Shown here in pieces: positions 27,464 to 63,130 of a stretch of DNA of 64,000 bases. Position numbers and translations under genes: made by a program. The DNA comes from an uncultured Acidobacteriaceae bacterium. Lineage in GTDB: Bacteria; Acidobacteriota; Terriglobia; Terriglobales; Acidobacteriaceae. Location of the stretch: positions 13,996-77,995 of the forward strand of contig CALFMO010000063.1 in assembly GCA_937879855.1 (NCBI GenBank), read 5' to 3'. The notes under the pieces were generated by a model, which searched no databases, was not told where the DNA came from, and saw only the letters and a program-made list of their open reading frames with translations. Numbering within the stretch: the stretch's first letter is position 1; each line of letters starts with the position of its first letter.

Positions 27464-27525
27464 ATGTGAAACGAACTGTTTCACATGAAAGATCGGAGAA
27501 TACGACCACTTATACTCCTTGTCAA
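27464..27525 (-). promoter_or_regulatory. sigma70-like promoter with GAAAC/GTTTC element site c just downstream of -10
   Basis: On the minus strand, TTGACA (27525-27520) is followed by a 17-nt spacer and TATTCT (27502-27497). After 10 nt comes the palindrome ATGTGAAAC-gaact-GTTTCACAT (27464-27486, 9-bp arms). Confidence 0.55.
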
Positions 27526-27660
27526 GATTAGACTAAGAATCAGCGGGAATAGGCCGGAAGTTCAGTCAGTAGAGTCAGGGAGCCGATCCTAACGCAGTCT
27601 GGTTTTCGATACCGAGAGCGCTGCGTACCTACAGAGTCACAAGATGCGGTGGATAGAATC

Positions 27661-29442
27661 TTATTGTGATAACACCGGCATGCCGGACCCTTCCTTCAGT
27701 ACCTGGAAGGTGTTGACGTGGGGTGCGTCAAATCGCTCGAGTGCTCCACTAGGCCAGCGCACTTCGAGAAAGTCGACTTTCGACGCCCCTCCGAGACCGA
27801 AGTGCAACCTCATATCGCTCTGGGACATGTAACAGCAGCCGCTTCGGACCTCCGCAACCTGGTTGAGTCCTCCTGCTTTGATTTTGACTCTTGCGCCGAT
27901 GGCATCGCGATTGGACCGGGTACCAACCAGCTTGAATGAAATCCAGTTTGCTTTTTTTCCGCGATTTCTAAACAAGCTGGCTCGGGAATCCAGATTGTTC
28001 ACGACGATTTCGAGAGCCCCACTATTGTCCAGATCGCCATACGCAAGGCCGCGCGACGAAGTACGCAGCAGCGTCCCCGGACCGGACTGCTCGGTCATGT
28101 CGGCAAACGTTCCATCCTCCAGGTTGTAGTAGAAGTTTTTCTCTTCGTTGAAGCGGCTGCCTCGCTTAAGTTGATCGATGTTCGGGTAGACGTGACCGTT
28201 AGCTATAAAAATGTCCTGCCACCCGTCATTATCCAAATCCACAAACGCAACGCCCCAGCCAACTTGATGCGTGCGGTACCCCAGCCCGGCCCGAATGGCC
28301 ACATCAGTAAAATAGCCGTCCCCGTCATGGAGAAAAAGCGCCGGGATGTCGTCATCAAACGTCGTGACTACCAGACTCAGCCGGCCGCTGTGATTGAAGT
28401 CTGCGGCATCTGCTCCCATCGACCCCTGCTCTTCGCCGTTTTCATTAAGGGCTACTCCTGCCTGAAATGCCGTGTCGGTAAAGGTTCCGTCATGATTGTT
28501 ACGGAGCAGGATGTTGGGTGTCGAATCGCAAGCCAGAAAAACGTCGGGCCATCCATCTCCGTCGAAATCGCCTGTAATGACTGAAAAGCAGTAATACCCC
28601 GAGGGCTGGTCAAAATGACTCTCCTGTGAAACATCTTTGAACGTTCCATTCCCCAGATTGCGGTACAAGATGTTTTGTCCACCTGGAAGCCCGCGCGGTC
28701 CGCATACCACCAGCAGTCCTTTAAAAGCGCACGAATTGCTGGCTTCCGGCGTAGTCTTAGGATCGAAGCGGACATAGTTAGCCACCGCGATGTCGAGGAA
28801 GCCATCGCGGTCATAATCGAAGAAGGAACAGCCTGTGCTCCACCTATTGCCGTCCACAGGGAGCCCCGCTTTTCTCGTGACATCGGTGAAGTGGCCGCCT
28901 CCATCATTGTGATAAAGCACATTGTGCCCGTAATACGTGACAAAAAGATCTTCCTTGCCGTCGTTGTCATAATCGCCGACGCATGCACCCTGGCCCCATC
29001 CATGCGAGACCAGTCCGGCTTCTGCGGTGACATCTTTGAAGTGAAGATTACCCAGATTTTTGTATAAGCGACTGGTGGGTCTCGCCGCACCTGCCGCTGA
29101 AGTCCATCGGTCGCCATTGACAAGAAAAATATCCGGCAGTCCGTCGCCGTCGTAGTCGAAAATCGCTACGCCCCCGCCGGTGGCCTCGACAAGAAACTTT
29201 TTGTTCAGGGGGTCGCCTGAAACATGGTGGAAGTCGAGACCGGCCTGCGGTGCAATATCCTCGAGCGAAATGGTCGGCAGATTCTTAAGAAGTGTGACCG
29301 GTTTTCGAGGCGGCGGCTCGTGATGCGGAGAAGCCATTCCCGTCTGACCGAACGACCTGCAATTAATCGCCAAGATAAGTGTCGCAAGGCAAGCCCATGG
29401 TCGAGCAGCTGGGCGAATTTTCCCGCGGGGAAAGGGGCGCAA
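27661..29442 (-). CDS. CRTAC1-family protein (FG-GAP/VCBS repeats plus ASPIC/UnbV C-terminal domain)
   Basis: Repeated FDYDGDGLPDIFLVNG-like calcium-binding repeats are present. The C-terminus NRDAIGARVKIKAGG...MSQSDMRLHFGLG...VEVRWPSG is typical of ASPIC/UnbV. Confidence 0.85.
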   Translation of the reverse strand: MRPFPRGKIRPAARPWACLATLILAINCRSFGQTGMASPHHEPPPRKPVTLLKNLPTISLEDIAPQAGLDFHHVSGDPLNKKFLVEATGGGVAIFDYDGDGLPDIFLVNGDRWTSAAGAARPTSRLYKNLGNLHFKDVTAEAGLVSHGWGQGACVGDYDNDGKEDLFVTYYGHNVLYHNDGGGHFTDVTRKAGLPVDGNRWSTGCSFFDYDRDGFLDIAVANYVRFDPKTTPEASNSCAFKGLLVVCGPRGLPGGQNILYRNLGNGTFKDVSQESHFDQPSGYYCFSVITGDFDGDGWPDVFLACDSTPNILLRNNHDGTFTDTAFQAGVALNENGEEQGSMGADAADFNHSGRLSLVVTTFDDDIPALFLHDGDGYFTDVAIRAGLGYRTHQVGWGVAFVDLDNDGWQDIFIANGHVYPNIDQLKRGSRFNEEKNFYYNLEDGTFADMTEQSGPGTLLRTSSRGLAYGDLDNSGALEIVVNNLDSRASLFRNRGKKANWISFKLVGTRSNRDAIGARVKIKAGGLNQVAEVRSGCCYMSQSDMRLHFGLGGASKVDFLEVRWPSGALERFDAPHVNTFQVLKEGSGMPVLSQ

Positions 29443-29451
29443 GAAGAACTC

Positions 29452-30462
29452 CTAGGGTGCCGGCACTGGGGTACGAGCCCGGGAACCGCCGGTCTTCATT
29501 CTCAAGAGTGCCTGCTCCTCCGCTAGAATCTGCGCCTCCTTGATGTCTGACTGCCGTAGCTCCCTAAGGTATTTGAAGAGCTCCTCTGCCTTTTTGGGGT
29601 CACCGTATCGCTGCTGGAGTCGTGCCAAATGGTAGTAGCTGAGCTCAAATTTCGGATCTAGTTTTATTGATTCCTCGTAGTCATCGATGGCCGCCTGGTA
29701 CTTTTTCAGTTCCTCATCGGATCTTCCCCGCATCATCCACGCCAGGGGTTCGAGCGGATACCTCTCTGTCGAGAGCATGAATTGTTCATTCGCTTCGGAG
29801 AAACGTCCAAGTCTAAACAACGCGAGGCCGTAATTGTAAGCATAAGAGCTGAATTCCTTGTTGGTTGGAGAATTGCTGAGGCGGACTGCCTTGGCAAAGA
29901 ATGGCAGAGCCTCGTCGAAGCGATTCTGTGTGTAGGCAATCCTGCCCAAAAAGAAATTAACGGGTCCTTCGAAGTCACGATGATTCACAAGCGGCTGAAA
30001 TTCACGACGCGCCGCATTCAAACGGCCCAGACGAAACAGACTGACGCCACGACTGAATCGCCAAAGGCTCTGCAGCGGTTCTGGCGGATTGGGAGGGCGG
30101 AGAATACGAAGGACATCCAGATCTCGATTCAGCGATTGATACAACTGCGCGAGCCTCGAGCGGACTTCCGTGTTCGAGGGATCCAGTTCGCATGCTATTT
30201 CGTAATGATGCATTGCACGTTGTGAATCGCCCAAACTCAACTCGACCTCTGCGAGGGCTGCATGATATTTCGGCTGTCTTGGGCTCAGCCGAATGGCCTC
30301 AGTCAGGGACGCCTTAGCGTCGTTGGCATCCCCATTCTGAAACGTTTGCCACCCCCTTTCCGCCAGTTTAGCGCCGGTTTGACTCTGCCCAGCCCACGCC
30401 GAGAGGGCCGCAAGGGCGAGAACAAGCACAGACGACGCGAAAGCCTGCAATTTACCTTTCAT
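29452..30462 (-). CDS. tetratricopeptide-repeat lipoprotein/periplasmic protein
   Basis: 336-aa ORF with a signal peptide and multiple TPR-like A..Y......A...F..AL repeats. It ends 9 nt upstream of the CRTAC1 gene start, so it is probably co-transcribed. Confidence 0.8.
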   Translation of the reverse strand: MKGKLQAFASSVLVLALAALSAWAGQSQTGAKLAERGWQTFQNGDANDAKASLTEAIRLSPRQPKYHAALAEVELSLGDSQRAMHHYEIACELDPSNTEVRSRLAQLYQSLNRDLDVLRILRPPNPPEPLQSLWRFSRGVSLFRLGRLNAARREFQPLVNHRDFEGPVNFFLGRIAYTQNRFDEALPFFAKAVRLSNSPTNKEFSSYAYNYGLALFRLGRFSEANEQFMLSTERYPLEPLAWMMRGRSDEELKKYQAAIDDYEESIKLDPKFELSYYHLARLQQRYGDPKKAEELFKYLRELRQSDIKEAQILAEEQALLRMKTGGSRARTPVPAP

Positions 30463-30542
30463 CGCCTACCACTTTACCTAAACTCTCTCGGCGGAGGAAG
30501 CTCAAATTGCGAAGGCGGTGGTACATGGGAAAATGACATGGA

Positions 30543-30559
30543 TGAAACGTGCCGTTTCG
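30543..30559. promoter_or_regulatory. weaker GAAAC/GTTTC palindrome (site i) overlapping a GC hairpin
   Basis: TGAAAC-gtgcc-GTTTCG lies at 30543-30559. GAAACGtgcCGTTTC is a perfect 15-bp palindrome. It overlaps the hairpin GTGCCG-ttt-CGGCAC (30549-30563). It sits 80-100 nt upstream of the TPR gene start. Confidence 0.25.
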
Positions 30560-30618
30560 GCACGGTTTAGCCAGACGGCGGCAATCCCTATGAATAAAAC
30601 CTGAGGCCAATCGACGTA

Positions 30619-30692
30619 TGGTACATAATGTTTCACAAATGAAACACAACGCAAGAATTCTCTTGACAATCAATCTGTGTCGTTCGTACGAT
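30619..30692 (+). promoter_or_regulatory. GAAAC/GTTTC element site d plus sigma70-like promoter of the TonB-dependent receptor gene
   Basis: The element is TGGTAC-ataat-GTTTCA-caaa-TGAAAC (30619-30645). After 17 nt come TTGACA (30663-30668), an 18-nt spacer and TACGAT (30687-30692). Confidence 0.5.
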
Positions 30693-30787
30693 GTGCGGCG
30701 AACTGAGGGGCGCAGTTCAAAGTCTGGCTCACAGGCAACCGTCTCTATTACGTGCTTCGCGAAGTGCAAAGAGAGGGGGAGACCAAC

Positions 30788-33700
30788 ATGCGTTTATCGA
30801 GAGCATTACTGACTCTAACGAGTGCGGTTTGTCTGTTTTCCGCCGCGGTTGCTCAGGTGGCGCCGAGCGCCATCGTGGGTTCAGTCACAGATCCGTCAGG
30901 AGCGGTCATGAGCGGAGTAGAGGTCACCATCGCCGACGTCAATACCGGATCCGAGCGAAAACTGAAGACCGGTGCCGACGGGGGCTACACGGCGGAAGAC
31001 GTGAAGCCCGGGTCTTACGCGATTACTGCCAGGGCATCTGGCTTCAAAGAAACGAAGGTCATTGGTATTGTCTTGCAGGTAGCCCAGCGGGCGCGTGTCG
31101 ATATCACACTCCAAGTAGGAACCTCCGCCCAGCAGGTTGAAGTGCAGGGCGCGGCGCCAACTCTCGAAACTGAGACCTCGTCGGTTGGAAAGGTGATCGA
31201 CACGCAGGATGTTGAGAATCTGCCCCTCAATGGTCGACAGTTTTTGCAGCTCGCGACCTTGATCCCTGGCGTTCACAGAACCTATAACCCGCCTTACCTT
31301 GAGACTACTGGGGGCAGCGTCTCTGAAAACGGTATGTCCAATGAATCCAACAACACAATGGTCGATGGCATCATGAACCAAGAGACGGGTGCCGGGCGAA
31401 TGACGTTTTCACCGAGCGTCGACATGATTCAAGAATTTAAGATGCAGACCAACACTTACGATTCTGAGTATGGGCGGACGGGTGGAGCTCAAATCGAGGT
31501 TATCACTAAACGGGGCGGGAACAGCTACCACGGCTCAGCCTATGAGTTCATCCGCAATAACGTCTTGGATTCCAGGCCTTATTTTCAAAGAGGGTCGCTC
31601 CCCGCGTTTCGGCGTAATCAGTTCGGCGGGACCTTTGGGGGACATATTCCCCACTCCAAGAAAGACTTTTTTTTCTTTTCGTACGAAGGACTCCGTCTGC
31701 GGCAAGGATTAACTGCGGTATTGAGCCTTCCTCCAGCCGCAATCCGTGGAGGAGATTTCTCCGGAACCGGAACTACCATCTATGATCCGCTAACCTTGGA
31801 TCCGAACACCGGTCAGCGGCAGCCGTTTCCCGGAGATGTGATTCCCGCCAACCGGCTTAACCCCACCACGCTGTATTTCTTGAACAGATTCCTGCCTAAC
31901 CCTGCCCCGGGCAGCGGCGTCAGCAACAACTATATATCGAATCCAAACCAGACCAACAATACTAACCAGTACAGCATCCGGTACGACAGAGACTTCTCAG
32001 CGAAGGATTCTATAACCTTCCGGTACACGCGAAACAAAACTTTCCTGCTTCTCCCCAGGGGTGACTCCGGAGTGGCCACGCCTTTGCCTGGTCTCGGAGA
32101 GCTTATCAATTTGTATGGTAACAACCATCAGGGAAAGTGGACACACCTCTTCAACACCACGACCATGAACACCCTGACTATTGGGTTTAGTCAGTACAAC
32201 CAACAACGGCATCCCGAAACGACCAATAAAAATATTATTCCAGACTCTGGTATGCAAGGAGTAAACGACGTGCAGGCCGGGATCCCTGCTTTCAATATCG
32301 CTGGTTTTAGCAGTTTAAACGATAACTATGTTTCTCCCATTTCGCAACCGTTTGACAACTATGTCTTGAACGATACTTTTGCCAAGGTATGGGGGAAACA
32401 TTCTTTGCGGTTCGGAGGCGGGATCCTCTACAATCGCACACAATCATTCCTCAATTTGTTTGATCGTGGCACCTTGAATTTTAGTCCCACGTATTCAACT
32501 CCCTCAATAGGTGCGGCGGGGAATGAGTACAACGCTTTCGCCGAATTCCTGCTAGGGGCTCCGACGTCCACGTCGATTTGGCTGAACCCAGTCAAAACGG
32601 ACTGGAGATCGCACACCGAATATTGGTTCTTACAGGACGACTGGAAGGTCACGCCAAACCTGTCGGTTAACCTGGGTGCGCGTTACGACCTTTATACTCG
32701 CCCCTATGATACTGGGAATCGGGAATCAGCATTTGATCTTGGTACACAAAAAGAGGTCTTTCCTGGTTCAGTACCCAATCTGCCAGGAGTTCCGCCGGGA
32801 TCCGTCACTGCTGAGAGCTTGGGGTATTCCCGCCAGTTGCAGTTTCAGACGACGCACAACAACTTCAGCCCACGAGTTGGATTTGCTTGGAGAATGTTTG
32901 GGAACGAAAAGACAGTCATTCGCGGTGGCACTGGCGTTTTCTACAACTGGCTTGTGATTGACTCTGCGACGAACTTAGCGCTTGGCCCGCCCTGGGTGCC
33001 GCGCACATCGATCAGCTGTAATAATGATGTTCCGTGCACGAATGCGACCAACCCGTTTTCTGCCACGATCCCCATTGGCTTCAGCGGAAACCTTGCCATT
33101 AAGACCAATAGAACACCTTACGTTGTCCAATTCTCTCTTGGCGTCCAGCGCGAGCTGACTCCGACCACGAGCTTTGAAGTGAACTACGTGGGGAATGCGG
33201 CTTTCAAGAACCTATTGGGTTTAAATCTCAACCAACCTGTGCCCGGTCCTGGTCCGATTAATCCCCGACGTCCTTACCCAAACCTGGGCGACCTGAGCGG
33301 CTACTTCAGTATAGGCAGGTCGCACTACGACTCGCTGCAAACCGCGCTCCGCAAGACTTACGACTCCACCGGATTGGTTGTTCTTGCGTCCTACACCTAT
33401 AGTCATGCGTTGGGTGACTCCATCAGCGGGCCGCAAGTCAATGAAAGGCCATCGGGTGCAATACGCGACAATAGACATCCTGATGCAGAGTACGGAAATA
33501 CCAGCTACGACATCCGTCACATTTTTTCACTAAGCGGAACCTACCAGCTGCCATTTGGGAAGGGCAGGCCGTTCGCGAATTCGGCTGCCGGCGTTGCGGA
33601 TGCGATTATCGGTGGCTGGAGCCTGGATACGATTCTGAGCTTCCAAACGGGACAGTGGATTACGCCGAATGATATCGTGAACGTCTCGAACGCCGGGGGC

Positions 33701-34057
33701 AGTCGCCCCGATGTAATCGGGAATCCGAACGGATTCTCCCATCCGAACAGGGCGGCGGAAATACGACAGTGGTTTAACACGGCTGCATTCCAGCGGGCTG
33801 CCCAATTCACGTTCGGAAACGCCGGCACGGGGATTATAGAAACGCCAGGCTATAGCGACGTGGATCTCTCCCTGCAGAAACGCTTTCCCATTGGGGAGCG
33901 ACTCGGTATGCAATTTCGAGCCGAGTTCTTCAATGCATTCAATCACACGAATCTCGGCGCACCCAATACAAGTTTTGGGTCTCCGGGCTTTGGCACCATT
34001 AACAGTATTGTGGGGTCGGCGCGGGACATCCAGTTTGGATTACGCTTTGACTTTTAG
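30788..34057 (+). CDS. TonB-dependent receptor with N-terminal carboxypeptidase-regulatory-like domain
   Basis: ATG 30788 is preceded by GGGGGAG. The signal peptide is MRLSRALLTLTSAVCLFSAAVAQ. The CarboxypepD_reg-like segment is GSVTDPSGAVMSGVEVTIADVNTGSERKLKTGADGGYTAEDVKPGSYAITARASGF. The plug region is ENLPLNGRQF. The C-terminus RDIQFGLRFDF has the terminal aromatic residue typical of outer-membrane barrels. Confidence 0.9.
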   Translation: MRLSRALLTLTSAVCLFSAAVAQVAPSAIVGSVTDPSGAVMSGVEVTIADVNTGSERKLKTGADGGYTAEDVKPGSYAITARASGFKETKVIGIVLQVAQRARVDITLQVGTSAQQVEVQGAAPTLETETSSVGKVIDTQDVENLPLNGRQFLQLATLIPGVHRTYNPPYLETTGGSVSENGMSNESNNTMVDGIMNQETGAGRMTFSPSVDMIQEFKMQTNTYDSEYGRTGGAQIEVITKRGGNSYHGSAYEFIRNNVLDSRPYFQRGSLPAFRRNQFGGTFGGHIPHSKKDFFFFSYEGLRLRQGLTAVLSLPPAAIRGGDFSGTGTTIYDPLTLDPNTGQRQPFPGDVIPANRLNPTTLYFLNRFLPNPAPGSGVSNNYISNPNQTNNTNQYSIRYDRDFSAKDSITFRYTRNKTFLLLPRGDSGVATPLPGLGELINLYGNNHQGKWTHLFNTTTMNTLTIGFSQYNQQRHPETTNKNIIPDSGMQGVNDVQAGIPAFNIAGFSSLNDNYVSPISQPFDNYVLNDTFAKVWGKHSLRFGGGILYNRTQSFLNLFDRGTLNFSPTYSTPSIGAAGNEYNAFAEFLLGAPTSTSIWLNPVKTDWRSHTEYWFLQDDWKVTPNLSVNLGARYDLYTRPYDTGNRESAFDLGTQKEVFPGSVPNLPGVPPGSVTAESLGYSRQLQFQTTHNNFSPRVGFAWRMFGNEKTVIRGGTGVFYNWLVIDSATNLALGPPWVPRTSISCNNDVPCTNATNPFSATIPIGFSGNLAIKTNRTPYVVQFSLGVQRELTPTTSFEVNYVGNAAFKNLLGLNLNQPVPGPGPINPRRPYPNLGDLSGYFSIGRSHYDSLQTALRKTYDSTGLVVLASYTYSHALGDSISGPQVNERPSGAIRDNRHPDAEYGNTSYDIRHIFSLSGTYQLPFGKGRPFANSAAGVADAIIGGWSLDTILSFQTGQWITPNDIVNVSNAGGSRPDVIGNPNGFSHPNRAAEIRQWFNTAAFQRAAQFTFGNAGTGIIETPGYSDVDLSLQKRFPIGERLGMQFRAEFFNAFNHTNLGAPNTSFGSPGFGTINSIVGSARDIQFGLRFDF

Positions 34058-34084
34058 TGGCGAAGTGCAACGTTCTTGAGATAA

Positions 34085-38980: not shown

Positions 38981-40513
38981 CTACCTGCTCAGAGTGACGA
39001 CTGCAACGGCAAGTCCAGGCAGAGGTACGTGGTCCCTTTGCATCACTGCTTTACGCGGTGGATCGAAACTGGTGGTTTGATCCACGTATTCGACCTGTGC
39101 ATCTTTTCCGTCAGGAAAGGCAATGTCAACAACTCGGTCGCGTTTGTTCACCAGCAGTATCTTCTTTTTTCCATTGCTACTTATAAAGCCTTGCGTGAAG
39201 ACGTAGTCGAGCGAGTTGCGCTCGTCTCCAACTTCCGAAGAAATGAACCTCGATTCCACTAATTTATCGCCAGGTGCGAAGTTCTCCCGCAGCACTTTCA
39301 AAACCCAATAGCGAGCGTTCGGCTTGCCGGTGACCCAGTCGACTAGCGTAGTTCCAGGGTATTGTCCCGGATAGTCGATGAGTTCCGCTTCGTCTATCAC
39401 ATCGATTCCCAACTGCGTCAAACGCGCATAGAGATAGGCGTACAAGCCGCCGCTGAGATTCCAATATGAATTTGGAATTGGCTGCGTCAATTCCGCGGTG
39501 CGCGCATTGGGCAGAATTGTGCCTACTTCGTTCACATGCGTAGCCGTGGTGGGAGACAGCCGTTTGCGGATGCGCTCGATATAGCGAACGACATTGATAA
39601 AATCTTCGGCTTGATCGTACAAGGTATGGGTCATCACCTCGGGACTTTCATCCGCACTCGGTATGGCATAGAAGTGATAGGAAATCACATCCAGTGGGAT
39701 GCCCGGCTCGTGATGCTTGGGATCGAGGAAATATTCAAAGTACTCGGGATGATTTAATGGACCACTCGGGTCCAAAGCCATGCCCACGAACTTCACTCCG
39801 GGAGCAACTTTACGCACCTGTGTGACGATTGCGTCGTAAATGGCGGTGTAATACTCTGGCGACATTTCGTGTTCTACCCCAACCTCGTTCAGTACCTCCC
39901 AGTAATCGAATTTGTAGTGATAATCGGAGGCGTGCCACCTCCCATACTCATCTTTAAACCCGCCGTGCGTGTACCAACCAGCAACCCGCGCCCAATAATC
40001 CGCCACTTCCTTCATGCTGGCATCACGCAACTGCGTGCCCTGTTCATAGTTCCACGCGATCTCGTCGGGATCGATCGGGTATAAGACCGGCTTGTCAGAA
40101 TTGAACATCCACTCCGGAATAGTGCTGATGTTCATGTCCACGGAATGGCCTGAGGTAGCCTCCATGAAGTCCGCAACGACGGGGTCGAGCAACGAGAAAT
40201 CCCACGAGGTCTTTCCATCATGAGGCGGCTCCAACTCGAGCACCGCTAGCCGCGGATAGGGATACCAAGGGGACAATCGGACGTAATCCGTACCAAGTTG
40301 GCGTAGCGCCTGGAACAACTGATCATGAATAGGTTTTGCGCGGCGCATGGGGGGTTCTACGCACACCTCCACCGAAACGGATGTTCGCGACTCTTGAATC
40401 ACATGGGCCCAATTGAACTCGATCCGTGCGGGACTCTGAGAAAAAGCGGAAGGCGTCAGGAGAAGCGTGTTACCGACCAGAGAGAGAAAGAGCGCCGTGG
40501 TGCATTTGGTCAT
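38981..40513 (-). CDS. secreted clan GH-A glycoside hydrolase (GH39-like), paralog of 21973..23484
   Basis: 510-aa ORF with a signal peptide (MTKCTTALFLSLVGNTLLLTPSAFSQ). YWEVLNEVG and SYHFY are present. It aligns end to end with the 503-aa paralog. It is the first gene of a GH39-like/MFS/lactonase operon. Confidence 0.7.
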   Translation of the reverse strand: MTKCTTALFLSLVGNTLLLTPSAFSQSPARIEFNWAHVIQESRTSVSVEVCVEPPMRRAKPIHDQLFQALRQLGTDYVRLSPWYPYPRLAVLELEPPHDGKTSWDFSLLDPVVADFMEATSGHSVDMNISTIPEWMFNSDKPVLYPIDPDEIAWNYEQGTQLRDASMKEVADYWARVAGWYTHGGFKDEYGRWHASDYHYKFDYWEVLNEVGVEHEMSPEYYTAIYDAIVTQVRKVAPGVKFVGMALDPSGPLNHPEYFEYFLDPKHHEPGIPLDVISYHFYAIPSADESPEVMTHTLYDQAEDFINVVRYIERIRKRLSPTTATHVNEVGTILPNARTAELTQPIPNSYWNLSGGLYAYLYARLTQLGIDVIDEAELIDYPGQYPGTTLVDWVTGKPNARYWVLKVLRENFAPGDKLVESRFISSEVGDERNSLDYVFTQGFISSNGKKKILLVNKRDRVVDIAFPDGKDAQVEYVDQTTSFDPPRKAVMQRDHVPLPGLAVAVVTLSR

Positions 40514-40557: not shown

Positions 40558-40619
40558 ATACTACAAATTGCCGCTTTCGTTGTCAAGCGTGAAGCCGCAT
40601 GCCGTTTCATATATGAATC
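40558..40619 (-). promoter_or_regulatory. GAAAC/GTTTC element site g plus sigma70-like promoter of the GH39-like/MFS/lactonase operon
   Basis: On the minus strand the element reads GATTCA-tata-TGAAAC (plus-strand GTTTCATATATGAATC, 40604-40619, one mismatch from a perfect palindrome). After 17 nt come TTGACA (40586-40581), a 17-nt spacer and TAGTAT (40563-40558). Confidence 0.5.
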
Positions 40620-40769
40620 AGTTTGTATCGAGAGTCGCGCAGCTGTGACAACTTCACGGGGCCCCGTGGCGGCAGATATTTGCCATAGCGCGATCTCGCA
40701 AGTAAGCCCAAGAAGACACTGCATGAGCCCCAACATGTTTCGCGTCAGCCGGCGCAGGCTGGGTAAAGC

Positions 40770-40831
40770 TGAATCATAATGTAGCGTATTGTGAAACAAG
40801 CATTGACACATCCGCATCGGTTGTCTACTAT
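40770..40831 (+). promoter_or_regulatory. sigma70-like promoter of the SDR/dehydratase genes with a degenerate GAAAC/GTTTC element (site h)
   Basis: The promoter is TTGACA (40803-40808), a 17-nt spacer and TACTAT (40826-40831). Upstream lies TGAATC-ataat-GTAGCG-tattg-TGAAAC (40770-40797). This shares the TGAAxCATAATGT core with sites b and d, but the middle half-site is degenerate. Confidence 0.4.
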
Positions 40832-43005: not shown

Positions 43006-43831
43006 ATGCGCAACAAATCGAAAGCCAATGTGAGGAGGGCGGGCTTTCTAAAAGTGGTAGAAAAGGTTTTTCGACTGCTGGAAACCCTGGCACAATCGGA
43101 AGCGGGCGTTCGAGTCAGCGATCTTGCGCGAACTCTTAGGCAGCCGAAAGCCTCGGTGTATCGGATACTGCTCACTTTGGAAACTCTAGGATATGTGAGG
43201 CAGGATGCTGACACCCTGGCGTATCAGTGCACCGCGCATGCAGCGTGGTTAACCCCGCAATCAGGCGAACGAGACGTTGCGGAGGATCGCGCTCGCGAAT
43301 GGAACGATTGCTCGCCAGGTTTGAGCAAACTGTAAATTTGGTGATTTTTGACCGGGACCGGATCTTCTATATCGAAATTCTTGAGGGGCTGCGCTCAATC
43401 CGCCTGGCCGCCACTCCGATGACCTATGCGCCACGCACTCGGCTGCAGTGGGAAAGTCGATACTCGCTTTTCTGCATCCGTCCGAGGCGTTGCAGATCTT
43501 GAAAGAACACGCTCTTGAGAAACACACTTCAAAGACTGTGGTATCGGAAAGAATGATTCTAGTGCAACTGGCCCAGGCGCGAGAGCACGGTTACGCGATC
43601 GATGATGAAGAGATTGAAATCGGAGCCCGCTGCATCGCGGCACCCATTTTTGATGGCCATGGCCGGCCCGTGGCGGCACTCAGTATCTCGGGGCCGGTCA
43701 ATTATGTGAGGGCCAGCATGTGTTTGAAAATGGCGAAGTCGCTGAAAGAAGCTAACAGCGGTATTTCCAAGCAATTTGGTTTCGCCGAGAGCAGACGGAA
43801 TGAGTCGAAAGAGGCAGATTTCTGTTTCTAA
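43006..43831 (+). pseudogene. IclR-family transcriptional regulator broken over at least three reading frames
   Basis: The N-terminal wHTH (VEKVFRLLETLAQSEAGVRVSDLARTLRQPKASVYRILLTLETLGYVRQ) is in frame 1 (43006..43335). The effector-domain start (MERLLARFEQTVNLVIFDRDRIFYIEILEGLRSIRLAATP) is in frame 0. The remainder (ATHSAAVGKSILAFL...GYAIDDEEIEIGARCIAAPIF...ALSISGP) is in frame 2 (to 43831). The total of 826 nt is not a multiple of 3. Confidence 0.7.
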
Positions 43832-49906: not shown

Positions 49907-51034
49907 CTATTCTCGGAGAGGAGCTTCGTCTTTCTGTGGATAGAAGTCCGAGATGTTGTCCGTGGTCAGAACGACATGATCCGTGTGAGTCACAAGAGGA
50001 GGATGTTCTCCTTCGCATATTTTTATAGCCAGCTTAAGCACGCGCATCCCATAACTTTCAGGAAAATAAGCTACGGACGCTCTCAGTGGACCGCCCCGCA
50101 AAATATGGCGACGGCCCTCAGCCGTTCCTCCCTGACCGACCACCACCGAACGGTCCTGCCAACCAGCTTCTCGCAAGGCGCGTGTCGCGCCGATGGCCAG
50201 CGGATCAGAAAAGGCCGCCACCATTAAATAAGGCGCCCGTCGCACCAATTTTTGAATGAAACGTTTGGTTAAGGTATAGCCCTCCTGAGCCGTTACTCCT
50301 GGCGCGGCGAATTCGATCTCGGGCGCGGTCCAGCCTCGCGCTCGCTGACCGAGCGCGTCGAGTAAACCGACCTTGCGAGTGTTCTGCGTCGATCCTAATC
50401 CTTTCGAAGGAATAATAAGGCAGGTGACTGCGCTTCCTCGGGAATGCTTACGCGCAAATCGCAATAAATAGTCGCCGGCGAGCCAACCTGTCTTGTAGCT
50501 GTCGGCGCCGAAATAATAGGCTCCCGGCTGAGGAAAATTGAGCGCAATCGCGGGGACATTGGCGCTGTGGCATTTCGCGGCAATCACGTGGCTCAGCGCT
50601 TCATTGCGCTGATGCTCAATCAATACGTCGATACCTTCACTCAAAAGCTGCTCGGCGTTTGCCAACGCTTTCGAAGGGTTGTCTTCATTGTCAGCGGCAA
50701 TAAGCGCGACTCCAAACTGCCGCGCAGCCGCCACCACGCTTCGCGTTACCTCGCTGGCAAATGTGATTTTTCCGAGAGCGGCATACCCAATTCGTAGTCT
50801 CTTTCGCGAGGGCGCGAGTACATAGCGTCTCTTGCCAGGTGCGCGTGTGACATAACCGCGTTTTGCCAACGTGTACACGAAGCGAAACGCGGAGGTGTAA
50901 GGCAGCTTGGCGCGCTTGGCGATTTCAGTGATCGAGAGTTGCTCCGTGTTGTCGGTAAAGCTCTCCAATACATCGAGGGTTTTGGCCGCAGCTTCTATGA
51001 AATAGCGATTTTTGTCGCCGAACTCAGAGTCCAT
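49907..51034 (-). CDS. hybrid transcriptional regulator: IclR-type winged HTH fused to a LacI/PBP type-I sugar-binding-like domain
   Basis: The N-terminus YFIEAAAKTLDVLESFTDNTEQLSITEIAKRAKLPYTSAFRFVYTLAKRGYVTR matches the IclR-type HTH pattern. The remaining ~290 aa (RIGYAALGKITFASEVTRSVVAAARQFGVALIAADNEDNPSKALANAEQLLSEGIDVLI...VAAFSDPLAIGATRALREAG) look like a periplasmic-binding-protein/LacI C-terminal fold. Confidence 0.7.
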   Translation of the reverse strand: MDSEFGDKNRYFIEAAAKTLDVLESFTDNTEQLSITEIAKRAKLPYTSAFRFVYTLAKRGYVTRAPGKRRYVLAPSRKRLRIGYAALGKITFASEVTRSVVAAARQFGVALIAADNEDNPSKALANAEQLLSEGIDVLIEHQRNEALSHVIAAKCHSANVPAIALNFPQPGAYYFGADSYKTGWLAGDYLLRFARKHSRGSAVTCLIIPSKGLGSTQNTRKVGLLDALGQRARGWTAPEIEFAAPGVTAQEGYTLTKRFIQKLVRRAPYLMVAAFSDPLAIGATRALREAGWQDRSVVVGQGGTAEGRRHILRGGPLRASVAYFPESYGMRVLKLAIKICEGEHPPLVTHTDHVVLTTDNISDFYPQKDEAPLRE

Positions 51035-51064: not shown

Positions 51065-51145
51065 ATTCGCTGAGCGAATATAATACATTCAATATCTGTA
51101 ACGCGAATAGTTTGTCTTGACAGTGGCCAATGCAGAAGATAAGTT
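51065..51145 (+). promoter_or_regulatory. 15-bp perfect palindrome plus candidate promoter of the sarcosine-oxidase-like operon
   Basis: ATTCGC-tga-GCGAAT lies at 51065-51079, and a third GCGAAT half-site at 51104-51109. TTGACA (51117-51122), a 17-nt spacer and TAAGTT (51140-51145) follow. The site lies between the divergent hybrid regulator gene and the oxidase operon. Confidence 0.45.
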
Positions 51146-59681: not shown

Positions 59682-60149
59682 TTATTTCTGTGGCACGAGA
59701 GTGTCCTGAGAGTTCACCGCTTGCCACCGCCCATGACGCTTCACGAAGACATCGGTCCAGACATAGTGACCACTGGTGTTGTTCGCTATGTTTGAACTCT
59801 TCTGCTCCGCGCTACCGGTCACGACAGCAGTGTCTCCGAACACACGGACCTTCACGTCGGAGAGAGTTTCAAATTCGAGGCCGCCGCCTCCCGACTTGAG
59901 GTCAGATAGATGCTGGGCTTTGGTCTCTACACCGGTCGCGCCTAGATAAGTCCAATCGTCCGCCAGTATGCGATCCAAAACCTTTGTGTCCTTGCCATTG
60001 TCTGCCTTCGCCCATTCGTTTTCGAGATTTACAAACATTTGCTGAAGGCTGGCTGCGTTGGCTTTTGATTTTGGCTGTGTATTTGGCTCCTGGCACAGGG
60101 CGAGCGGCACAACAACGATCAGGACCGTAATTGCCAAGCTTCGTTGCAT
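59682..60149 (-). CDS. secreted DUF4440/SnoaL-like (NTF2-fold) protein, paralog of 62473..62922
   Basis: ATG 60149 is preceded by AGAGGTGGA. The signal peptide is MQRSLAITVLIVVVPLALCQ. It shares long identical stretches with the other copy: ADDWTYLG, ETKAQHL and TAVVTG...WTDVFVKR.G.W.AVNSQDT. Confidence 0.75.
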   Translation of the reverse strand: MQRSLAITVLIVVVPLALCQEPNTQPKSKANAASLQQMFVNLENEWAKADNGKDTKVLDRILADDWTYLGATGVETKAQHLSDLKSGGGGLEFETLSDVKVRVFGDTAVVTGSAEQKSSNIANNTSGHYVWTDVFVKRHGRWQAVNSQDTLVPQK

Positions 60150-60195: not shown

Positions 60196-60248
60196 TGAAA
60201 CATACTGTTTCACGGATGGACAATAAAAGCACCTGCGTATATTGTCAA
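60196..60248 (-). promoter_or_regulatory. sigma70-like promoter with GAAAC/GTTTC element site e just downstream of -10
   Basis: On the minus strand, TTGACA (60248-60243) is followed by a 17-nt spacer and TATTGT (60225-60220). After 7 nt comes the palindrome TGAAAC-agtat-GTTTCA (plus-strand TGAAACATACTGTTTCA, 60196-60212). It lies 47 nt upstream of the DUF4440 start. Confidence 0.55.
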
Positions 60249-60302: not shown

Positions 60303-61227
60303 GTGACGGAGAATCTTTTCAAGGTCTTTCTCAATGGAAATATGGTCGCGCGGAACGAAGCATGGGTGAGCATTGATAGTGTCGCAGTCGAATATGCGGC
60401 CATGGTGTTCGAAGGGATTCGAGGATACTGGAACGAACGCGAGTGTCAGCTCTATGTCTTTCGGCTCGCGGATCACGCCCAACGATTGAAAGAATCCGTC
60501 ATACTGATTGGGGATGGAAACTGAGCTCGGCGCAGCCGACTTTTCTCGGACGGTGTTGCAAGCAATCGAGGCGAACGGCGTAAGCCAGCATGTCCACATC
60601 CGGCAATTAGTGTAGGTCGATGCCGGCGGCGAGATGTTTACCCAAGGACCGGTTGGCGATGCCGTAGTGGTGACCCCAAAGTCGGGGTGGTTTGCCGGCG
60701 GTCATGAAGGAGCCATGCGGGCGTAAGCAGCGGCAGCGAATCAGCGACAACTCAAGTCCTCCCCGTATCAAATGCGCGGCGAATTCCCAAAATGGACGTT
60801 TGGCTTCTGCTTCAGGCGAAGACGGATGGGTGCGCCTTAAATCCTGGATCAGGAGGTCACGCAGAAGAAGGCCCATGTTCTCCGAAATCCAAGGATATTA
60901 GGGAGCGGAGTGTTTCCATAGGTGATGGTGAGCATCGATCTTGGCGTAAGGCATTCGAGGTCCTTAATTGTTTTCCAGTCGGCCAACGATTCAAGTTTGA
61001 TCTGTTATTCCAGCCACCACGCTCTGGAGTCTTGGCGTTTGCCGTGCCTGAACCATAATCGATCCATCGAATCCTGTTCGCTTGAGTTCGGGTCCAAGAT
61101 GCCCCCGCAGAAATTCCCGGCGAAAGCACGACATCGAATCATCGATCCAGATAAATTCGTCTGGTGTATAACGCCAGAAATGCTGGTGAGCCTCGATGCG
61201 CGTGAGCGCGGTTCACACTGTCTTTGA
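60303..61227 (+). pseudogene. ilvE: decayed branched-chain amino acid aminotransferase gene
   Basis: The N-terminal part is intact-looking (FLNGNMVARNEAWVSIDSVAVEYAAMVFEGIRGYW...FRLADHAQRLKES). A +1 frame change follows near 60510. After that, a single frame carries recognisable remnants (HIRQLV*VDAGGEM vs the YIRPLIFVG pattern; VVVTPKSGWFAG). That frame has four in-frame stops: TAG 60613, TAA 60724, TAA 60838 and TAG 60919. The catalytic-lysine region is not conserved. Confidence 0.7.
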
Positions 61228-62091: not shown

Positions 62092-62139
62092 TGTTTTACT
62101 CTCGCAATGCGAGCTTAATGTGCATCGCCAGCTAAGGTT

Positions 62140-62473
62140 CTAGCTCAAAAACATGTTCCATCGCAGCCATTTGTCGTCAGGCTTTGATTCCGGCAACGCT
62201 CGCTGAAATCTCCACATGAGCTGCTCCCAAGCCTGCACTCTCGATTCTGCTGATCGGCCTTCGCTTTCTTCTCAAACGAAAGTCTCTCATTTACTTCCAT
62301 AATCATGAACATGCGCGTGCCGAGCAGGTAAATGTCGAGATTCTCGATACCGGACTCCTTTAAGCCTTGCATGATCTCGAGCCAGATCTTCTCGTGAGGC
62401 GGAAACCGAGAAATCGACGAATCGCTTCGCCACGCCTGCGTGCCTCGACGCGGAAAGCATCAGCAGAGAACAT
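62140..62473 (-). pseudogene. rhaM: decayed L-rhamnose mutarotase-like gene
   Basis: Hand translation gives RhaM-like pieces in three frames. These are MFSADAFRVEA..., then PPHEKIWLEIMQGLKESGIENLDIYLLGTRMFMIMEV, then VQAWEQLMWRFQRALPESKPDDKWLRWNMFLS*. The total of 334 nt is not a multiple of 3. Its ATG shares one base with the stop of the upstream DUF4440 gene (TGATG). Confidence 0.6.
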
Positions 62474-62922
62474 CACTGATGAGTCAGCGGTGTGTCCTGG
62501 GAATTTACCGCCAGCCAATGTCCCTGACGTTTCACGAACACATCTGTCCACAAATAGTCTCCGCTGGTATCTTTACCGCTATTACTGCTCTTTTCGTGTT
62601 CGCGTCCAGTGACGACGGCGGTGTTTCCGAACAGTCGAACCTTCATGTCCATTAGGGTGATGGATTCGAGCTTGTCCTGCCCCGTTTTGAGTCCAGCCAG
62701 GTGCTGAGCTTTCGTTTCAAGTCCAACAGGGCCCAAATACGTCCAATCGTCGGCAAGCAATTTTCCCAGGGCGACTGCGTCCTTATTCTTGTCCGCCTCC
62801 GCCCACCGGTTCTCGATTTGTCTAAACATCTCCGTCACGCTGGCGTCTGCCTGGCTGGTTTGGCCCACAGCCCACGATACAGAGGCCGTAAAGAACAACA
62901 TAATCGCTATGCTTCGTTTCAT
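62473..62922 (-). CDS. secreted DUF4440/SnoaL-like (NTF2-fold) protein, paralog of 59682..60149
   Basis: ATG 62922 is preceded by GGGAGGG. The signal peptide is MKRSIAIMLFFTASVSWAVGQ. It is clearly homologous along its full length to the 59682..60149 product. Confidence 0.75.
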   Translation of the reverse strand: MKRSIAIMLFFTASVSWAVGQTSQADASVTEMFRQIENRWAEADKNKDAVALGKLLADDWTYLGPVGLETKAQHLAGLKTGQDKLESITLMDMKVRLFGNTAVVTGREHEKSSNSGKDTSGDYLWTDVFVKRQGHWLAVNSQDTPLTHQ

Positions 62923-63069
62923 GCGGTTTACCCTCCCTAATTCTGCCCAGCCGCCCGCTAAGGCCCCGAAAGCCTGCAAGAAAGAGATATGCCCCGCGAG
63001 CCAACCGGAAGCGAGCAGAAAGTCTGCCCGGACGATAGTTAACTGTCAAGCGAAAAAGCGGGACATATC

Positions 63070-63130
63070 ATTTCATTAATGAAACGCATCAAACTTCTCG
63101 CTTGACATGAATTCAAGCCGTTCGTAGTAT
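63070..63130 (+). promoter_or_regulatory. GAAAC/GTTTC element site f plus sigma70-like promoter of the cytochrome c gene
   Basis: ATTTCA-ttaa-TGAAAC lies at 63070-63085. After 16 nt come TTGACA (63102-63107), a 17-nt spacer and TAGTAT (63125-63130). On the opposite strand another TTGACA (plus-strand tgtcaa near 63045) lies 20 nt from the palindrome. The site therefore sits centrally in a divergent promoter region. Confidence 0.5.

What the first reader, a model, noticed from the sequence alone, without database searches (positions are those of the whole stretch)
27464..63130. The element occupies two fixed positions relative to TTGACA-N17-TAnnnT promoters
In class 1 the arrangement is GTTTCA-N4-TGAAAC, and it ends 15-17 nt upstream of a -35 box. 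At site a it is 15 nt before TTGACG. At site d it is 17 nt before TTGACA-N18-TACGAT. At site f it is 16 nt before TTGACA-N17-TAGTAT. At site g on the minus strand it is 17 nt before TTGACA-N17-TAGTAT. This puts the dyad centre near -60, the classic position of class-I activator sites. In class 2 the arrangement is TGAAAC-N5-GTTTCA, and it lies 3-10 nt downstream of the -10. At site c, TTGACA-N17-TATTCT is followed by the palindrome after 10 nt. At site e, TTGACA-N17-TATTGT is followed by it after 7 nt. At site b, TATTGT is followed by it after 3 nt, but the -35 there is unclear. Class 2 covers the transcription start, which is the classic repressor position. The same half-site vocabulary used in an everted and an inverted arrangement at activator-like and repressor-like positions suggests a dual-function regulator or two related regulators. 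For class 2 there is an alternative: the palindrome would be transcribed and could form a 5'-terminal stem-loop of 7-9 bp that affects mRNA stability.
Basis: partly seen in the sequence, partly recalled or inferred. Interest (0 to 1): 0.65.

Follow-up and report, generated by a model that had tools for sequence, protein, structure and literature searches.

The report
IclR-type operator boxes at acidobacterial promoters
The repeated TGAAAC/GTTTCA palindromes are real binding sites of an IclR-family regulator in an uncultured soil acidobacterium. One box arrangement always sits about 60 bases upstream of sugar- and glycan-utilisation promoters and the other sits on their transcription starts; this is a known kind of system with one new regularity.

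Summary
In the window every palindrome with at most one mismatch is intergenic (9 of 9). They flank 6 of the window's 8 exact TTGACA-N16-18-TAnnnT promoters.

I tested 332 kb of related Terriglobia DNA that had been fetched without using the motif.
- GTTTCA-N4-TGAAAC: 15 hits, and 14 lie 15-18 nt upstream of a -35 box.
- TGAAAC-N5-GTTTCA: 11 hits, and 7 lie 5-14 nt downstream of a -10 box; none is in the upstream position.
- All other spacings give only 0-4 hits each.

The two arrangements match the published "group 1" and "group 2" IclR-family motifs. The upstream sites are in fact oriented three-box sites (YGRTAC-N5-GTTTCA-N4-TGAAAC), as already described for this family (Suvorova & Gelfand 2021).

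IclR genes sit next to such sites in seven related loci. In two species, the operon that carries a 277-aa IclR has the inverted site on its own start, and the divergent promoter has the three-box site.

The window's own IclR gene is frameshifted and is linked to a different box variant. The cognate regulator is therefore probably encoded elsewhere in the genome.

Repression at the start site and activation from about -60 are inferred, not shown. A 5' RNA hairpin is disfavoured. Verdict: a new member of a known kind, of moderate interest.

The parts
10246..10317 (+). Site a. Full three-box operator TGAAGC-ATATT-GTTTCA-TTAA-TGAAAC (10246-10272), then 15 nt, then -35 TTGACG (10288-10293), N18, and -10 TAACAT (10312-10317). 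It lies upstream of the operon that starts with the GH94-like gene 10593-13439 (followed by DUF4432, a nickel-pincer isomerase and a class II aldolase).
20343..20368 (.). Site b. Perfect inverted two-box site TGAAAC-ATAAT-GTTTCA (20343-20359), between PhyH (minus strand) and an amino-acid permease (plus strand). On the minus strand TATTGT (20363-20368) lies 3 nt upstream. No convincing -35 box on either strand.
27467..27525 (-). Site c. Minus-strand promoter with -35 TTGACA (27520-27525), N17 and -10 TATTCT (27497-27502). After 13 nt comes the inverted two-box site TGAAAC-AGTTC-GTTTCA (27467-27483). It lies upstream of the operon of a 570-aa unknown protein, an S15 peptidase and a GH39-like protein.
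   Evidence: Promoter and boxes are conserved in L209 and L210 while the spacer varies.
30543..30559 (.). Extra inverted site with one mismatch, TGAAAC-GTGCC-GTTTCG. It lies about 80 nt upstream of the ATG (30462) of the TPR/FG-GAP operon. No promoter was recognised. It overlaps a second small hairpin (CGTGCC/GGCACG). Its status is uncertain.
30619..30692 (+). Site d. Oriented three-box site TGGTAC-ATAAT-GTTTCA-CAAA-TGAAAC (30619-30645), then 17 nt, then -35 TTGACA (30663-30668), N18 and -10 TACGAT (30687-30692). It lies upstream of the TonB-dependent receptor gene 30752-34057 and a 711-aa unknown gene.
   Evidence: The orthologous promoter in L209 keeps TGATAC-N5-GTTCCG-N4-TGAAAC, 17 nt, TTGACA-N18-TACGAT.
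40558..40630 (-). Site g. Read on the minus strand: CGATAC-AAACT-GATTCA-TATA-TGAAAC (40630-40604), then 17 nt, then -35 TTGACA (40586-40581), N17 and -10 TAGTAT (40563-40558). It lies upstream of the operon of a GH39-like 510-aa protein, an MFS transporter and an SMP-30 lactonase.
   Evidence: The orthologous site in L211 keeps the same GATTCA variant, 18 nt before TTGACA.
40770..40831 (+). Different three-box variant TGAATC-ATAAT-GTAGCG-TATTG-TGAAAC (40770-40797). It ends 5 nt before -35 TTGACA (40803-40808), followed by N17 and -10 TACTAT (40826-40831). This is the promoter of the operon of an SDR, an enolase-superfamily dehydratase and the IclR gene.
   Evidence: The same layout is present in L215/L216 and L001.
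43006..43831 (+). IclR-family regulator gene, read in three frames. Relative to L001 it has +1, -2 and -1 nt indels. It is intact in the syntenic loci L215 (270 aa), L213 (278 aa) and L001 (286 aa).
60196..60248 (-). Site e. Minus-strand promoter with -35 TTGACA (60243-60248), N17 and -10 TATTGT (60220-60225). After 7 nt comes the inverted two-box site TGAAAC-AGTAT-GTTTCA (60196-60212). It lies upstream of a secreted DUF4440/SnoaL-like protein whose likely start is near 60149.
63059..63130 (+). Site f. Oriented three-box site CGGGAC-ATATC-ATTTCA-TTAA-TGAAAC (63059-63085), then 16 nt, then -35 TTGACA (63102-63107), N17 and -10 TAGTAT (63125-63130). It lies upstream of a secreted di-haem cytochrome-c-type protein that runs off the end of the window.
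   Evidence: Promoters of the same build are present in L160, L189, L150 and L212.

Best explanation
The element is the operator of an IclR-family transcription factor. It controls a regulon for glycan, sugar-acid and peptide utilisation in an uncultured Terriglobia acidobacterium.

The unit is a 6-bp box, TGAAAC or its complement GTTTCA. Boxes of alternating direction lie 10-11 bp apart, so the bound helix-turn-helix domains face the same side of the DNA, as expected for a dimer of dimers.

Two architectures are used.
1. An oriented three-box site, YGRTAC-N5-GTTTCA-N4-TGAAAC. Its promoter-proximal box ends 15-18 nt upstream of the -35 box, so the strong dyad is centred near -60.
2. A two-box inverted site, TGAAAC-N5-GTTTCA, 3-13 nt downstream of the -10 box, across the transcription start.

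Shown here:
- The boxes, their spacing, their orientation and their promoter positions.
- Their conservation in orthologous promoters of other species.
- IclR genes lying next to such sites.

Inferred:
- One regulator binds both architectures through two dimer geometries. This regulator is of the 277-aa type found in L211 and L212, and in this genome it is encoded outside the window.
- At the start-site operator it blocks RNA polymerase, including at the promoter of its own operon.
- From the -60 site it stimulates the promoter when its effector is present, in the way PobR and PcaU activate a divergent catabolic operon while controlling their own gene.
For: Enrichment and location
- 4 and 5 palindromes against 0.13 and 0.15 expected. 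All nine are intergenic.
- 6 of the 8 exact TTGACA-N16-18-TAnnnT matches in the window lie next to the element.

Coupling of arrangement and position
- I tested 331.8 kb of Terriglobia DNA fetched without any motif in the query.
- Everted N4: 15 hits, 14 of them 15-18 nt upstream of a -35 box and none after a -10 box.
- Inverted N5: 11 hits, 7 of them 5-14 nt after a -10 box and none at 15-18 nt upstream of a -35 box.
- Every other spacing from N0 to N9 gives 0-4 hits, and only two of these (everted N2, inverted N4) lie after a -10 and none upstream of a -35.

Phylogenetic footprints
- Site c in the window, L209 and L210: the -35 box, the -10 box and both operator boxes are identical, while the spacer differs.
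- Site d has an ortholog in L209 and site g has one in L211.

Three-box nature
- In an oriented alignment of 18 upstream sites, the distal box has G in 16 of 18 and C in 15 of 18.

Family assignment
- Suvorova & Gelfand 2021 (PMC8222616) describe IclR motifs of group 1 (GKTYCRYW3-4RYGRAMC) and group 2 (TGRAACAN1-2TGTTYCA).
- They note that one is the other with its halves swapped, and they report three-box sites in 32 orthologous groups.
- They list KdgR as GAAACGNCGTTTC.

Link to the regulator
- L198 and L201: an IclR gene is divergent from a TonB-receptor gene that carries the everted site.
- L202 and L205: the everted site lies 18 nt before the TTGACA of the operon that follows the IclR gene.
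- L211 and L212: the operon Aminotran_3 / ~700 aa / IclR (277 aa) has the inverted site 10-11 nt after its -10 box, and the divergent promoter has the three-box site.
- The metagenome contig that carries P0128 has an IclR gene beside the ortholog of the site-c gene.
- The recognition helix KA[ST]x[YF]R[IV]LxTL is invariant in all these IclR proteins.

Precedent
- The family includes dual regulators. PcaU is a tetrameric IclR-type activator that remains on its operator with and without its effector (PMC5949891).
Against: - No intact IclR gene of the right type lies in the window. The only IclR gene, 43006-43831, is frameshifted and is tied to a different box variant. The cognate regulator is therefore inferred from other genomes.
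- The spacing differs by one base from the published consensus in both arrangements: GTT-10-AAC here against GTT-11-AAC, and N3 here against N1-2.
- The upstream-site promoters have a consensus -35 box and -10 boxes such as TAGTAT. Promoters of that quality usually need no activator, so the -60 site could be negative or merely architectural.
- Sites b and 30543 have no recognisable promoter.
- There is no transcript or binding data. Only DNA metagenome runs hold this sequence.
Confidence: 0.7

Rival explanations
1. Two paralogous IclR-family regulators share the same half-site. One binds only the everted or three-box sites at -60. The other binds only the inverted sites at the transcription start.
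For: - At least three IclR groups with the same recognition helix occur next to TGAAAC-type boxes in these bacteria: the L198 type, the 277-aa type and the L001/window type.
- Sites of the L198 type are two-box everted only, always 18 nt from the -35 box.
- In L006 and L007, IclR genes carry only an inverted N4 site on their own promoter.
- Suvorova & Gelfand find groups 1 and 2 mostly in different regulators.
Against: - In L211 and L212 a single IclR operon is flanked by both architectures, and no second regulator lies in the 20 kb around it.
- The upstream sites contain the inverted pair as boxes 1 and 2, so the two architectures overlap physically.
Confidence: 0.2
2. The family assignment is right, but every site is negative. 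The -60 sites act as auxiliary operators, for example by bridging through a tetramer or by blocking contacts upstream of the promoter. They are not activator sites.
For: - The upstream-site promoters are near consensus: TTGACA-N17-TAGTAT.
- From my own knowledge, E. coli IclR uses an upstream box as well as one that overlaps the promoter.
- Most characterised IclR and KdgR sugar regulators are repressors; the database names given to the homologs say 'KDG regulon repressor'.
Against: - No second operator is seen at or downstream of the core promoter in sites a, d, f and g.
- The strict distance of 15-18 nt and the fixed orientation of the asymmetric site are what a contact with RNA polymerase would demand.
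- In L202 and L205 the promoter after the site has a poor -10 box (CAAGCT), as expected for an activated promoter.
Confidence: 0.25
3. The start-site palindromes work as RNA. They form a 5'-terminal stem-loop that changes the stability or translation of the mRNA.
For: If transcribed, sites c and e would fold at -10 and -8.5 kcal/mol, with z-scores of -4.4 and -4.9.
Against: - Sites of the same kind in other species have uncompensated changes (TAAAAC...GTTTCA in L002 and L212; CGAAAC...GTTTCA in L211) and fold at only -1 and -3.7 kcal/mol.
- Where the boxes do vary, the changes are uncompensated rather than covarying. Only the loop varies freely.
- The same boxes, at the same spacing, occur upstream of promoters, where they are not transcribed.
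- The distance to the -10 box varies from 3 to 13 nt, so the hairpin would not be reliably 5'-terminal.
Confidence: 0.04
4. The boxes belong to a different regulator family. Candidates are a CRP/FNR-type activator for the 16-bp everted dyad at -60.5, or a TetR-type (PsrA-like, GAAAC-N-GTTTC) or LacI-type (Cra-like, TGAAAC|GTTTCA) repressor for the inverted dyad.
For: - The -60.5 position and the N4 spacing resemble class I sites of the FNR type.
- From my own knowledge, the PsrA and Cra consensus sequences contain GAAAC/GTTTC.
Against: - No gene of those families is found repeatedly next to the sites, whereas IclR genes are.
- The oriented third box and the use of both arrangements are features described for IclR, not for those families.
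- The only other regulator in the window, the HTH_IclR + Peripla_BP_4 protein, has its own separate palindrome, ATTCGC-TGA-GCGAAT.
Confidence: 0.05

Closest known systems
IclR-family binding motifs of group 1, group 2 and three-box type (Suvorova & Gelfand 2021, PMC8222616)
   Same: - The same half-site (GTTYCR / YGRAAC).
- The same two arrangements, each being the other with its halves swapped.
- The same three-box arrays of alternating direction.
- Box 1 to box 3 distance of about 21 bp, which is two helical turns.
- Regulator genes next to their sites.
   Different: - The everted site here is GTT-10-AAC, against their main GTT-11-AAC and NGT-12-ACN.
- The inverted site here has N3 between TGAAACA and TGTTTCA, against their N1-2.
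- Acidobacteria are absent from their taxon table.
- They measured positions only relative to the start codon. They did not report that the two arrangements occupy different positions relative to the promoter.
PcaU and PobR of Acinetobacter baylyi (IclR-type activators with three-repeat operators)
   Same: - The operator is a palindrome plus a third external repeat.
- In L211 and L212 the regulator gene (in its operon) is divergent from the presumed activated operon.
- The regulator is a tetramer that stays on the DNA.
- The distance between operator and promoter matters.
   Different: - The box sequence differs (GTTCGA / TCGAAC type).
- Their substrates are aromatic.
- No separate two-box operator at the transcription start is described for them, as far as I know.
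- Activation is demonstrated for them and only inferred here.
KdgR of Enterobacteria (IclR-family repressor of pectin and KDG genes)
   Same: - Identical half-site, GAAAC / GTTTC, in the inverted arrangement.
- It controls a sugar-acid catabolic regulon.
- Its recognition helix is similar (my own recollection of the E. coli KdgR sequence).
- L143 in the metagenome scan is a kdgK locus with GTTTCA-N4-TGAAAC-N3-GTTTCA.
   Different: - The KdgR box has N3 between the hexamers, against N5 here.
- The window has no kdgK, kdgA or kdgT genes.
- KdgR is known only as a repressor.
Class I CRP/FNR-dependent promoters
   Same: The dyad is centred near -60.5/-61.5, one helical turn upstream of the -35 region, with strict phasing.
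   Different: - A different protein family and a different motif.
- The site here is asymmetric, with three boxes.
- The core promoters here are near consensus.

Membership tests
IclR-family operator, group 1 (everted) | Half-sites GKTYCR ... YGRAMC | tested here: met
   GTTTCA ... TGAAAC fits in all 18 aligned sites. The core positions T2-T3-C4 and G-A-A-A-C are invariant.
IclR-family operator, group 1 (everted) | Spacing: 17-18 bp overall (GTT-11-AAC or NGT-12-ACN) | tested here: not met
   The site here is 16 bp (GTT-10-AAC), one base shorter. N4 between the hexamers is the only enriched spacing.
IclR-family operator, group 2 (inverted) | TGRAACA-N1-2-TGTTYCA | tested here: inconclusive
   The half-sites fit (TGAAACA ... 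TGTTTCA), but the gap is N3, one base longer. Sites with N2 do occur on the IclR gene promoters of L006 and L007.
IclR-family operator, three-box type | Three boxes of alternating direction, with one pair matching group 2 and the other pair matching group 1 | tested here: met
   Site a has all three boxes. The distal box YGRTAC is conserved in the oriented alignment. The feature is described.
IclR-family regulon | An IclR-family gene next to its own sites, regulating itself and one or two adjacent operons | tested here: inconclusive
   Met in the related loci L198, L201, L202, L205, L211 and L212. In the window itself, the only IclR gene is frameshifted and lies behind a different box variant.
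IclR-family regulon | Direct binding of the protein to the boxes | not testable with these tools
   This needs EMSA, footprinting or DAP-seq.
KdgR regulon | A GAAAC-N5-GTTTC box (N3 between the hexamers) upstream of kdg and pectin genes | tested here: not met
   The spacing here is N5. The N3 spacing gives only 1 hit in 332 kb. No kdgK, kdgA or kdgT genes were found in the window.
CRP/FNR class I activation | A symmetric dyad centred at -61.5 (plus or minus whole helical turns), bound by a CRP/FNR-family dimer | tested here: inconclusive
   The position is met (a gap of 15-18 nt puts the centre at about -59 to -62). The site is asymmetric with three boxes, and no CRP/FNR gene is associated with it.
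PcaU/PobR-type activation | Effector-dependent activation of the divergent operon, with the regulator staying bound | not testable with these tools
   Only the layout is seen: a divergent arrangement in L211 and L212, and a third box.

The most novel reading that the evidence does not exclude
In this group of Terriglobia, a single IclR-family regulator reads the arrangement of identical boxes as the sign of regulation. The oriented three-box (everted) array at -60 activates. The inverted two-box array on the transcription start represses, including at the regulator's own operon. This would be the first functional meaning for the 'alternative dimerisation' that Suvorova & Gelfand proposed for the IclR family. 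It would give a simple rule for predicting activation or repression from sequence alone.
Probability: 0.4. Interest if true: 0.65.

Novelty: new member of a known kind. Interest (0 to 1): 0.42.

Why it matters
- Almost nothing is known about transcriptional regulation in Acidobacteriota, one of the most abundant soil phyla. I found no paper on an acidobacterial IclR regulon in the held library.
- This locus gives a well-defined operator, promoter models (TTGACA-N17-TAnnnT) and a candidate regulator family. The genes controlled include TonB-dependent receptors, glycoside-hydrolase-like proteins, S15 peptidases and a non-phosphorylative sugar-acid pathway.
- The strict link between box arrangement and promoter position is a concrete test of the idea that IclR proteins dimerise on DNA in two ways. 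It can be done with a purified protein and two short DNA fragments.
- If the link holds, the sign of regulation could be predicted for many IclR regulons, and IclR-based biosensors could be designed with it in mind.

Tried and rejected
- **HTH_IclR + Peripla_BP_4 protein (49907-51034) as the regulator.** Rejected. Its own divergent region carries a different palindrome, ATTCGC-TGA-GCGAAT (51065-51079), which is partly conserved in L001 and L002. It carries no TGAAAC boxes.
Unlikely. It has three indels relative to L001. Its operon promoter carries another variant, TGAAWC-N5-GTnnCR-N5-TGAAAC, 5-6 nt before the -35 box, in the window, L215 and L001.
- **Exact-match look-up of a window protein.** Nothing on record.
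- **Sequencing runs.** Only soil DNA metagenomes hold this sequence and there is no RNA, so transcription starts cannot be mapped.
- **Laying contigs on 30500-30720.** Related strains align over the site and core promoter but not over the flanks. There were too few contigs to count substitutions.
- **Metagenome scan with GTTTCA-N4-TGAAAC-N5-35-TTGACA.** It was capped at 120 stretches and dominated by chance hits from unrelated low-GC organisms, and the histogram of gaps was flat. Only the subset with GC of at least 0.5 and a full promoter clustered at 15-18 nt (5 of 7).
- **First pattern search in L001-L007.** Few hits. The useful loci came later, from homologs of the regulated genes and of IclR.
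- **LacI/Cra, TetR/PsrA and CRP/FNR assignments.** Considered from memory and set aside, because no such gene is associated with the sites and those families do not show three-box arrays.
- **NCBIfam.** No names for six of the unknown regulon proteins.

Full report
**Context.** The window has 54% GC. It encodes proteins typical of Acidobacteriota:
- a CarboxypepD_reg/OMP_b-brl_4 TonB-dependent receptor, FG-GAP/ASPIC and TPR proteins, and three S15 peptidases;
- GH-like proteins;
- a non-phosphorylative sugar-acid pathway (SDR, an enolase-superfamily dehydratase, a FAH-family hydrolase most similar to 2,4-didehydro-3-deoxy-L-rhamnonate hydrolase, and an SMP-30 lactonase);
- a sarcosine-oxidase-like cluster.

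The nearest genomes are Terriglobia MAGs (L001 at 86% and L002 at 85% amino-acid identity on the dehydratase). Only soil and rhizosphere DNA metagenomes contain the sequence, and no RNA run does.

**Check of the observation.** GTTTCA-N4-TGAAAC occurs 4 times with at most one mismatch, against 0.13 expected. TGAAAC-N5-GTTTCA occurs 5 times, against 0.15 expected.
- All nine hits are intergenic, although about 84% of the window is coding. Hits with two mismatches are mostly inside genes.
- Other spacings of the same boxes are not enriched.
- Six of the eight exact TTGACA-N16-18-TAnnnT matches in the whole window lie beside the element.
- Sites a (10257) and b (20343) lie outside the stated coordinates.
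- Site a is really three boxes (10246-10272).
- A further one-mismatch palindrome lies at 30543.

**The same rule holds in other species.** I collected Terriglobia loci through homologs of the dehydratase, of the gene downstream of site c, and of IclR proteins. The motif was never part of these queries. The results in 331.8 kb are:

| Arrangement | Hits | 15-18 nt upstream of a TTGACA-like -35 | 5-14 nt after the -10 of a full promoter |
|---|---|---|---|
| Everted, N4 | 15 | 14 | 0 |
| Inverted, N5 | 11 | 0 | 7 |
| Any other spacing, N0-N9 | 0-4 each | 0 | 1 each at everted N2 and inverted N4 |

With the four metagenome loci added, 18 of 18 everted sites have the -35 box 15-18 nt away. Of 10 stand-alone inverted sites, 8 lie 7-13 nt after a -10 box.

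Orthologous promoters give clean footprints.
- For site c, the window, L209 and L210 share TTGACA-N17-TATTCT-CCG, then 12-13 nt, then TGAAAC-N5-GTTTCA. The spacer and the flanks differ.
- The ortholog of site d in L209 keeps TGATAC-N5-GTTCCG-N4-TGAAAC, 17 nt, TTGACA-N18-TACGAT.
- The ortholog of site g in L211 even keeps the GATTCA variant.

**Anatomy.** I aligned the 18 upstream sites, each oriented towards its promoter. A third, distal box appears 5 nt before GTTTCA. Its consensus is YGRTACA, with G in 16 of 18 sites, C in 15 of 18 and the following A in 14 of 18.
- 'Class 1' is therefore an oriented three-box operator: box 1 (weak, TGAAAC-like), N5, box 2 (GTTTCA), N4, box 3 (TGAAAC).
- Box 3 lies nearest the promoter, and box 1 and box 3 are 21 bp apart.
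- 'Class 2' is the box 1-box 2 geometry on its own, with two strong boxes.
- The two promoter sets also differ in their -10 and discriminator regions: TAGTAT-GCGC against TAWTCT-CC.

[quoted passage not shown] - three-box sites with alternating direction in 32 orthologous groups;
- the suggestion of two dimerisation modes, and of tetramer binding with sites two helical turns apart.

The family includes repressors, activators and dual regulators. KdgR has the same GAAAC/GTTTC half-site.

The present sites differ by one base in each spacing (GTT-10-AAC, and N3 in the inverted site). Acidobacteria were not in that study's taxon table.

**Which regulator.** IclR genes lie next to the sites again and again.
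- In L198 and L201 an IclR gene is divergent from a TonB-receptor gene that carries the everted site 18 nt before TTGACA.
- In L202 and L205 the everted site lies in the 3' end of the IclR gene, 18 nt before the TTGACA of the next operon. L205 also has a second site upstream, serving a divergent promoter.
- L211 lies on the same 509-kb contig as L002 and L209, which together form a gene cluster much like the window. There and in L212, the operon Aminotran_3 / ~700 aa / IclR (277 aa; P0256, P0253) has the inverted site 10-11 nt after its own -10 box. The divergent GH39-like/MFS promoter has the three-box site.
- A further contig, for which no DNA was available, has an IclR gene of 277 aa beside the ortholog of the site-c gene.
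- All these proteins share the recognition helix KA[ST]x[YF]R[IV]LxTL.

The window's own IclR gene (43006-43831) is read in three frames. Relative to L001 it has +1, -2 and -1 nt indels, and related strains have CG inserted after 43287. It is intact in the fully syntenic L215. Its operon promoter carries a different array, TGAAWC-N5-GTnnCR-N5-TGAAAC, ending 5-6 nt before the -35 box; this is conserved in the window, L215/L216 and L001. This is an inference.

The other regulator in the window (HTH_IclR + Peripla_BP_4, 49907-51034) has its own palindrome, ATTCGC-TGA-GCGAAT, and is not the candidate.

**Mechanism.** Two things are shown: the positions, and the conservation of the boxes. The rest is inferred.
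- An inverted operator that spans roughly +1 to +25 is the standard geometry for blocking initiation or promoter escape. On the IclR operon it would give negative autoregulation.
- For the three-box site centred near -60, its strict distance, fixed orientation and helical phase fit a contact with RNA polymerase. This matches IclR-type activators such as PcaU, a tetramer that stays bound and for which the operator-promoter distance matters.
- Against activation: these promoters have a consensus -35 box and good -10 boxes. A purely negative or architectural role therefore remains a serious rival.
- One protein or two? In L211 and L212 both architectures lie beside a single IclR operon, and the inverted pair is physically contained in the three-box site. 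Both points favour one protein with two binding geometries. Several paralogs with the same helix exist, however, so two proteins are not excluded.

**RNA alternative.** Sites c and e would fold well as RNA (-10 and -8.5 kcal/mol). Sites of the same class in L002 and L211 carry uncompensated changes and fold at only -1 and -3.7 kcal/mol. The boxes show no covariation, and the same boxes work in untranscribed positions.

**Verdict.** The feature is real and conserved. It is an IclR-family operator system in Terriglobia, and so a new member of a known kind. The one aspect I did not find described is that the box arrangement is strictly coupled to the promoter position. If a single regulator reads both arrangements, this would give a function to the proposed alternative dimerisation of IclR proteins.

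Noticed in passing
window 43006-43831 (+): The IclR-family gene downstream of the SDR-dehydratase operon is broken by three small indels (+1, -2 and -1 nt relative to L001). Contigs of related strains (X2, X3, X7) have CG inserted after 43287. The gene is intact in the syntenic loci L215, L213 and L001. It is either a recent pseudogene or an assembly error confined to this gene.
   Followed up: partly
window 51065-51079 and 51103-51110: A palindrome ATTCGC-TGA-GCGAAT and a further GCGAATAG lie just upstream of a TTGACA. They sit between the HTH_IclR + Peripla_BP_4 regulator gene and the DAO / sarcosine-oxidase-like operon. Similar GCGAAT boxes occur at the same place in L001 and L002. This is probably the operator of that unusual fusion regulator.
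   Followed up: partly
window 40770-40831; L215 ~275-345; L001 8377-8440: The promoter of the SDR-dehydratase-IclR operon has a separate three-box variant (TGAAWC-N5-GTAGCG/GTCGCA/GTACCG-N5-TGAAAC).
   Followed up: partly
window promoters at 27497, 60220 (class 2) and 40558, 63125 (class 1); also L209, L210, L211, L212, L150, L160, L189: The two promoter sets differ beyond the operator. The -10 box and discriminator are TAGTAT-GCGC after upstream sites, and TAWTCT-CC(G) before start-site operators. Both forms are conserved across species.
   Followed up: no
L006 9901-9990 and 17399-17470; L007 9931-10010 and 12475-12540: In two more distant Terriglobia, the dehydratase promoter is followed by a different palindrome (TGCGGAAC-N5/6-TCCGC). 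The neighbouring IclR gene's own promoter is followed by YGAAAC-N4-GTTTCG. These are start-site operators with other boxes or spacings.
   Followed up: no
L082, L084, L146, L149, L152 (metagenome contigs, GC 0.36-0.41): A conserved extended palindrome, aaaaGTTTCATTAATGAAACtttt, lies exactly 6 nt upstream of TTGACA in five low-GC contigs. The core is the same 16 bp as site a, in an unrelated lineage and at a different promoter distance.
   Followed up: no
L143, minus strand, ~10170-10236: Upstream of a 2-keto-3-deoxygluconate-kinase-like gene lies GTTTCA-ATTA-TGAAAC-GTT-GTTTCA, 17 nt before TTGACA-N17-TATGAT. This is a three-box site whose second pair has the classical KdgR spacing. An IclR gene lies about 4 kb away.
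   Followed up: no
window 30700-30718: A palindrome GAACTG-N7-CAGTTC lies just downstream of the -10 box of the TonB-receptor promoter (site d). It could be a second operator or a 5'-UTR hairpin.
   Followed up: no
window 1890-2732 (-): Two adjacent short ORFs (1890-2285 and 2385-2732) each give a weak match to a different part of DUF4238. This looks like a split or decayed gene.
   Followed up: no
window 38981-40513 and 21973-23484; L002 7534-9081; L211 4620-6218: The 510-aa 'unknown' protein after site g is a paralog of the GH39-like protein (about 48% identity through the L002 ortholog). The regulon therefore contains at least two GH39-like enzymes.
   Followed up: no
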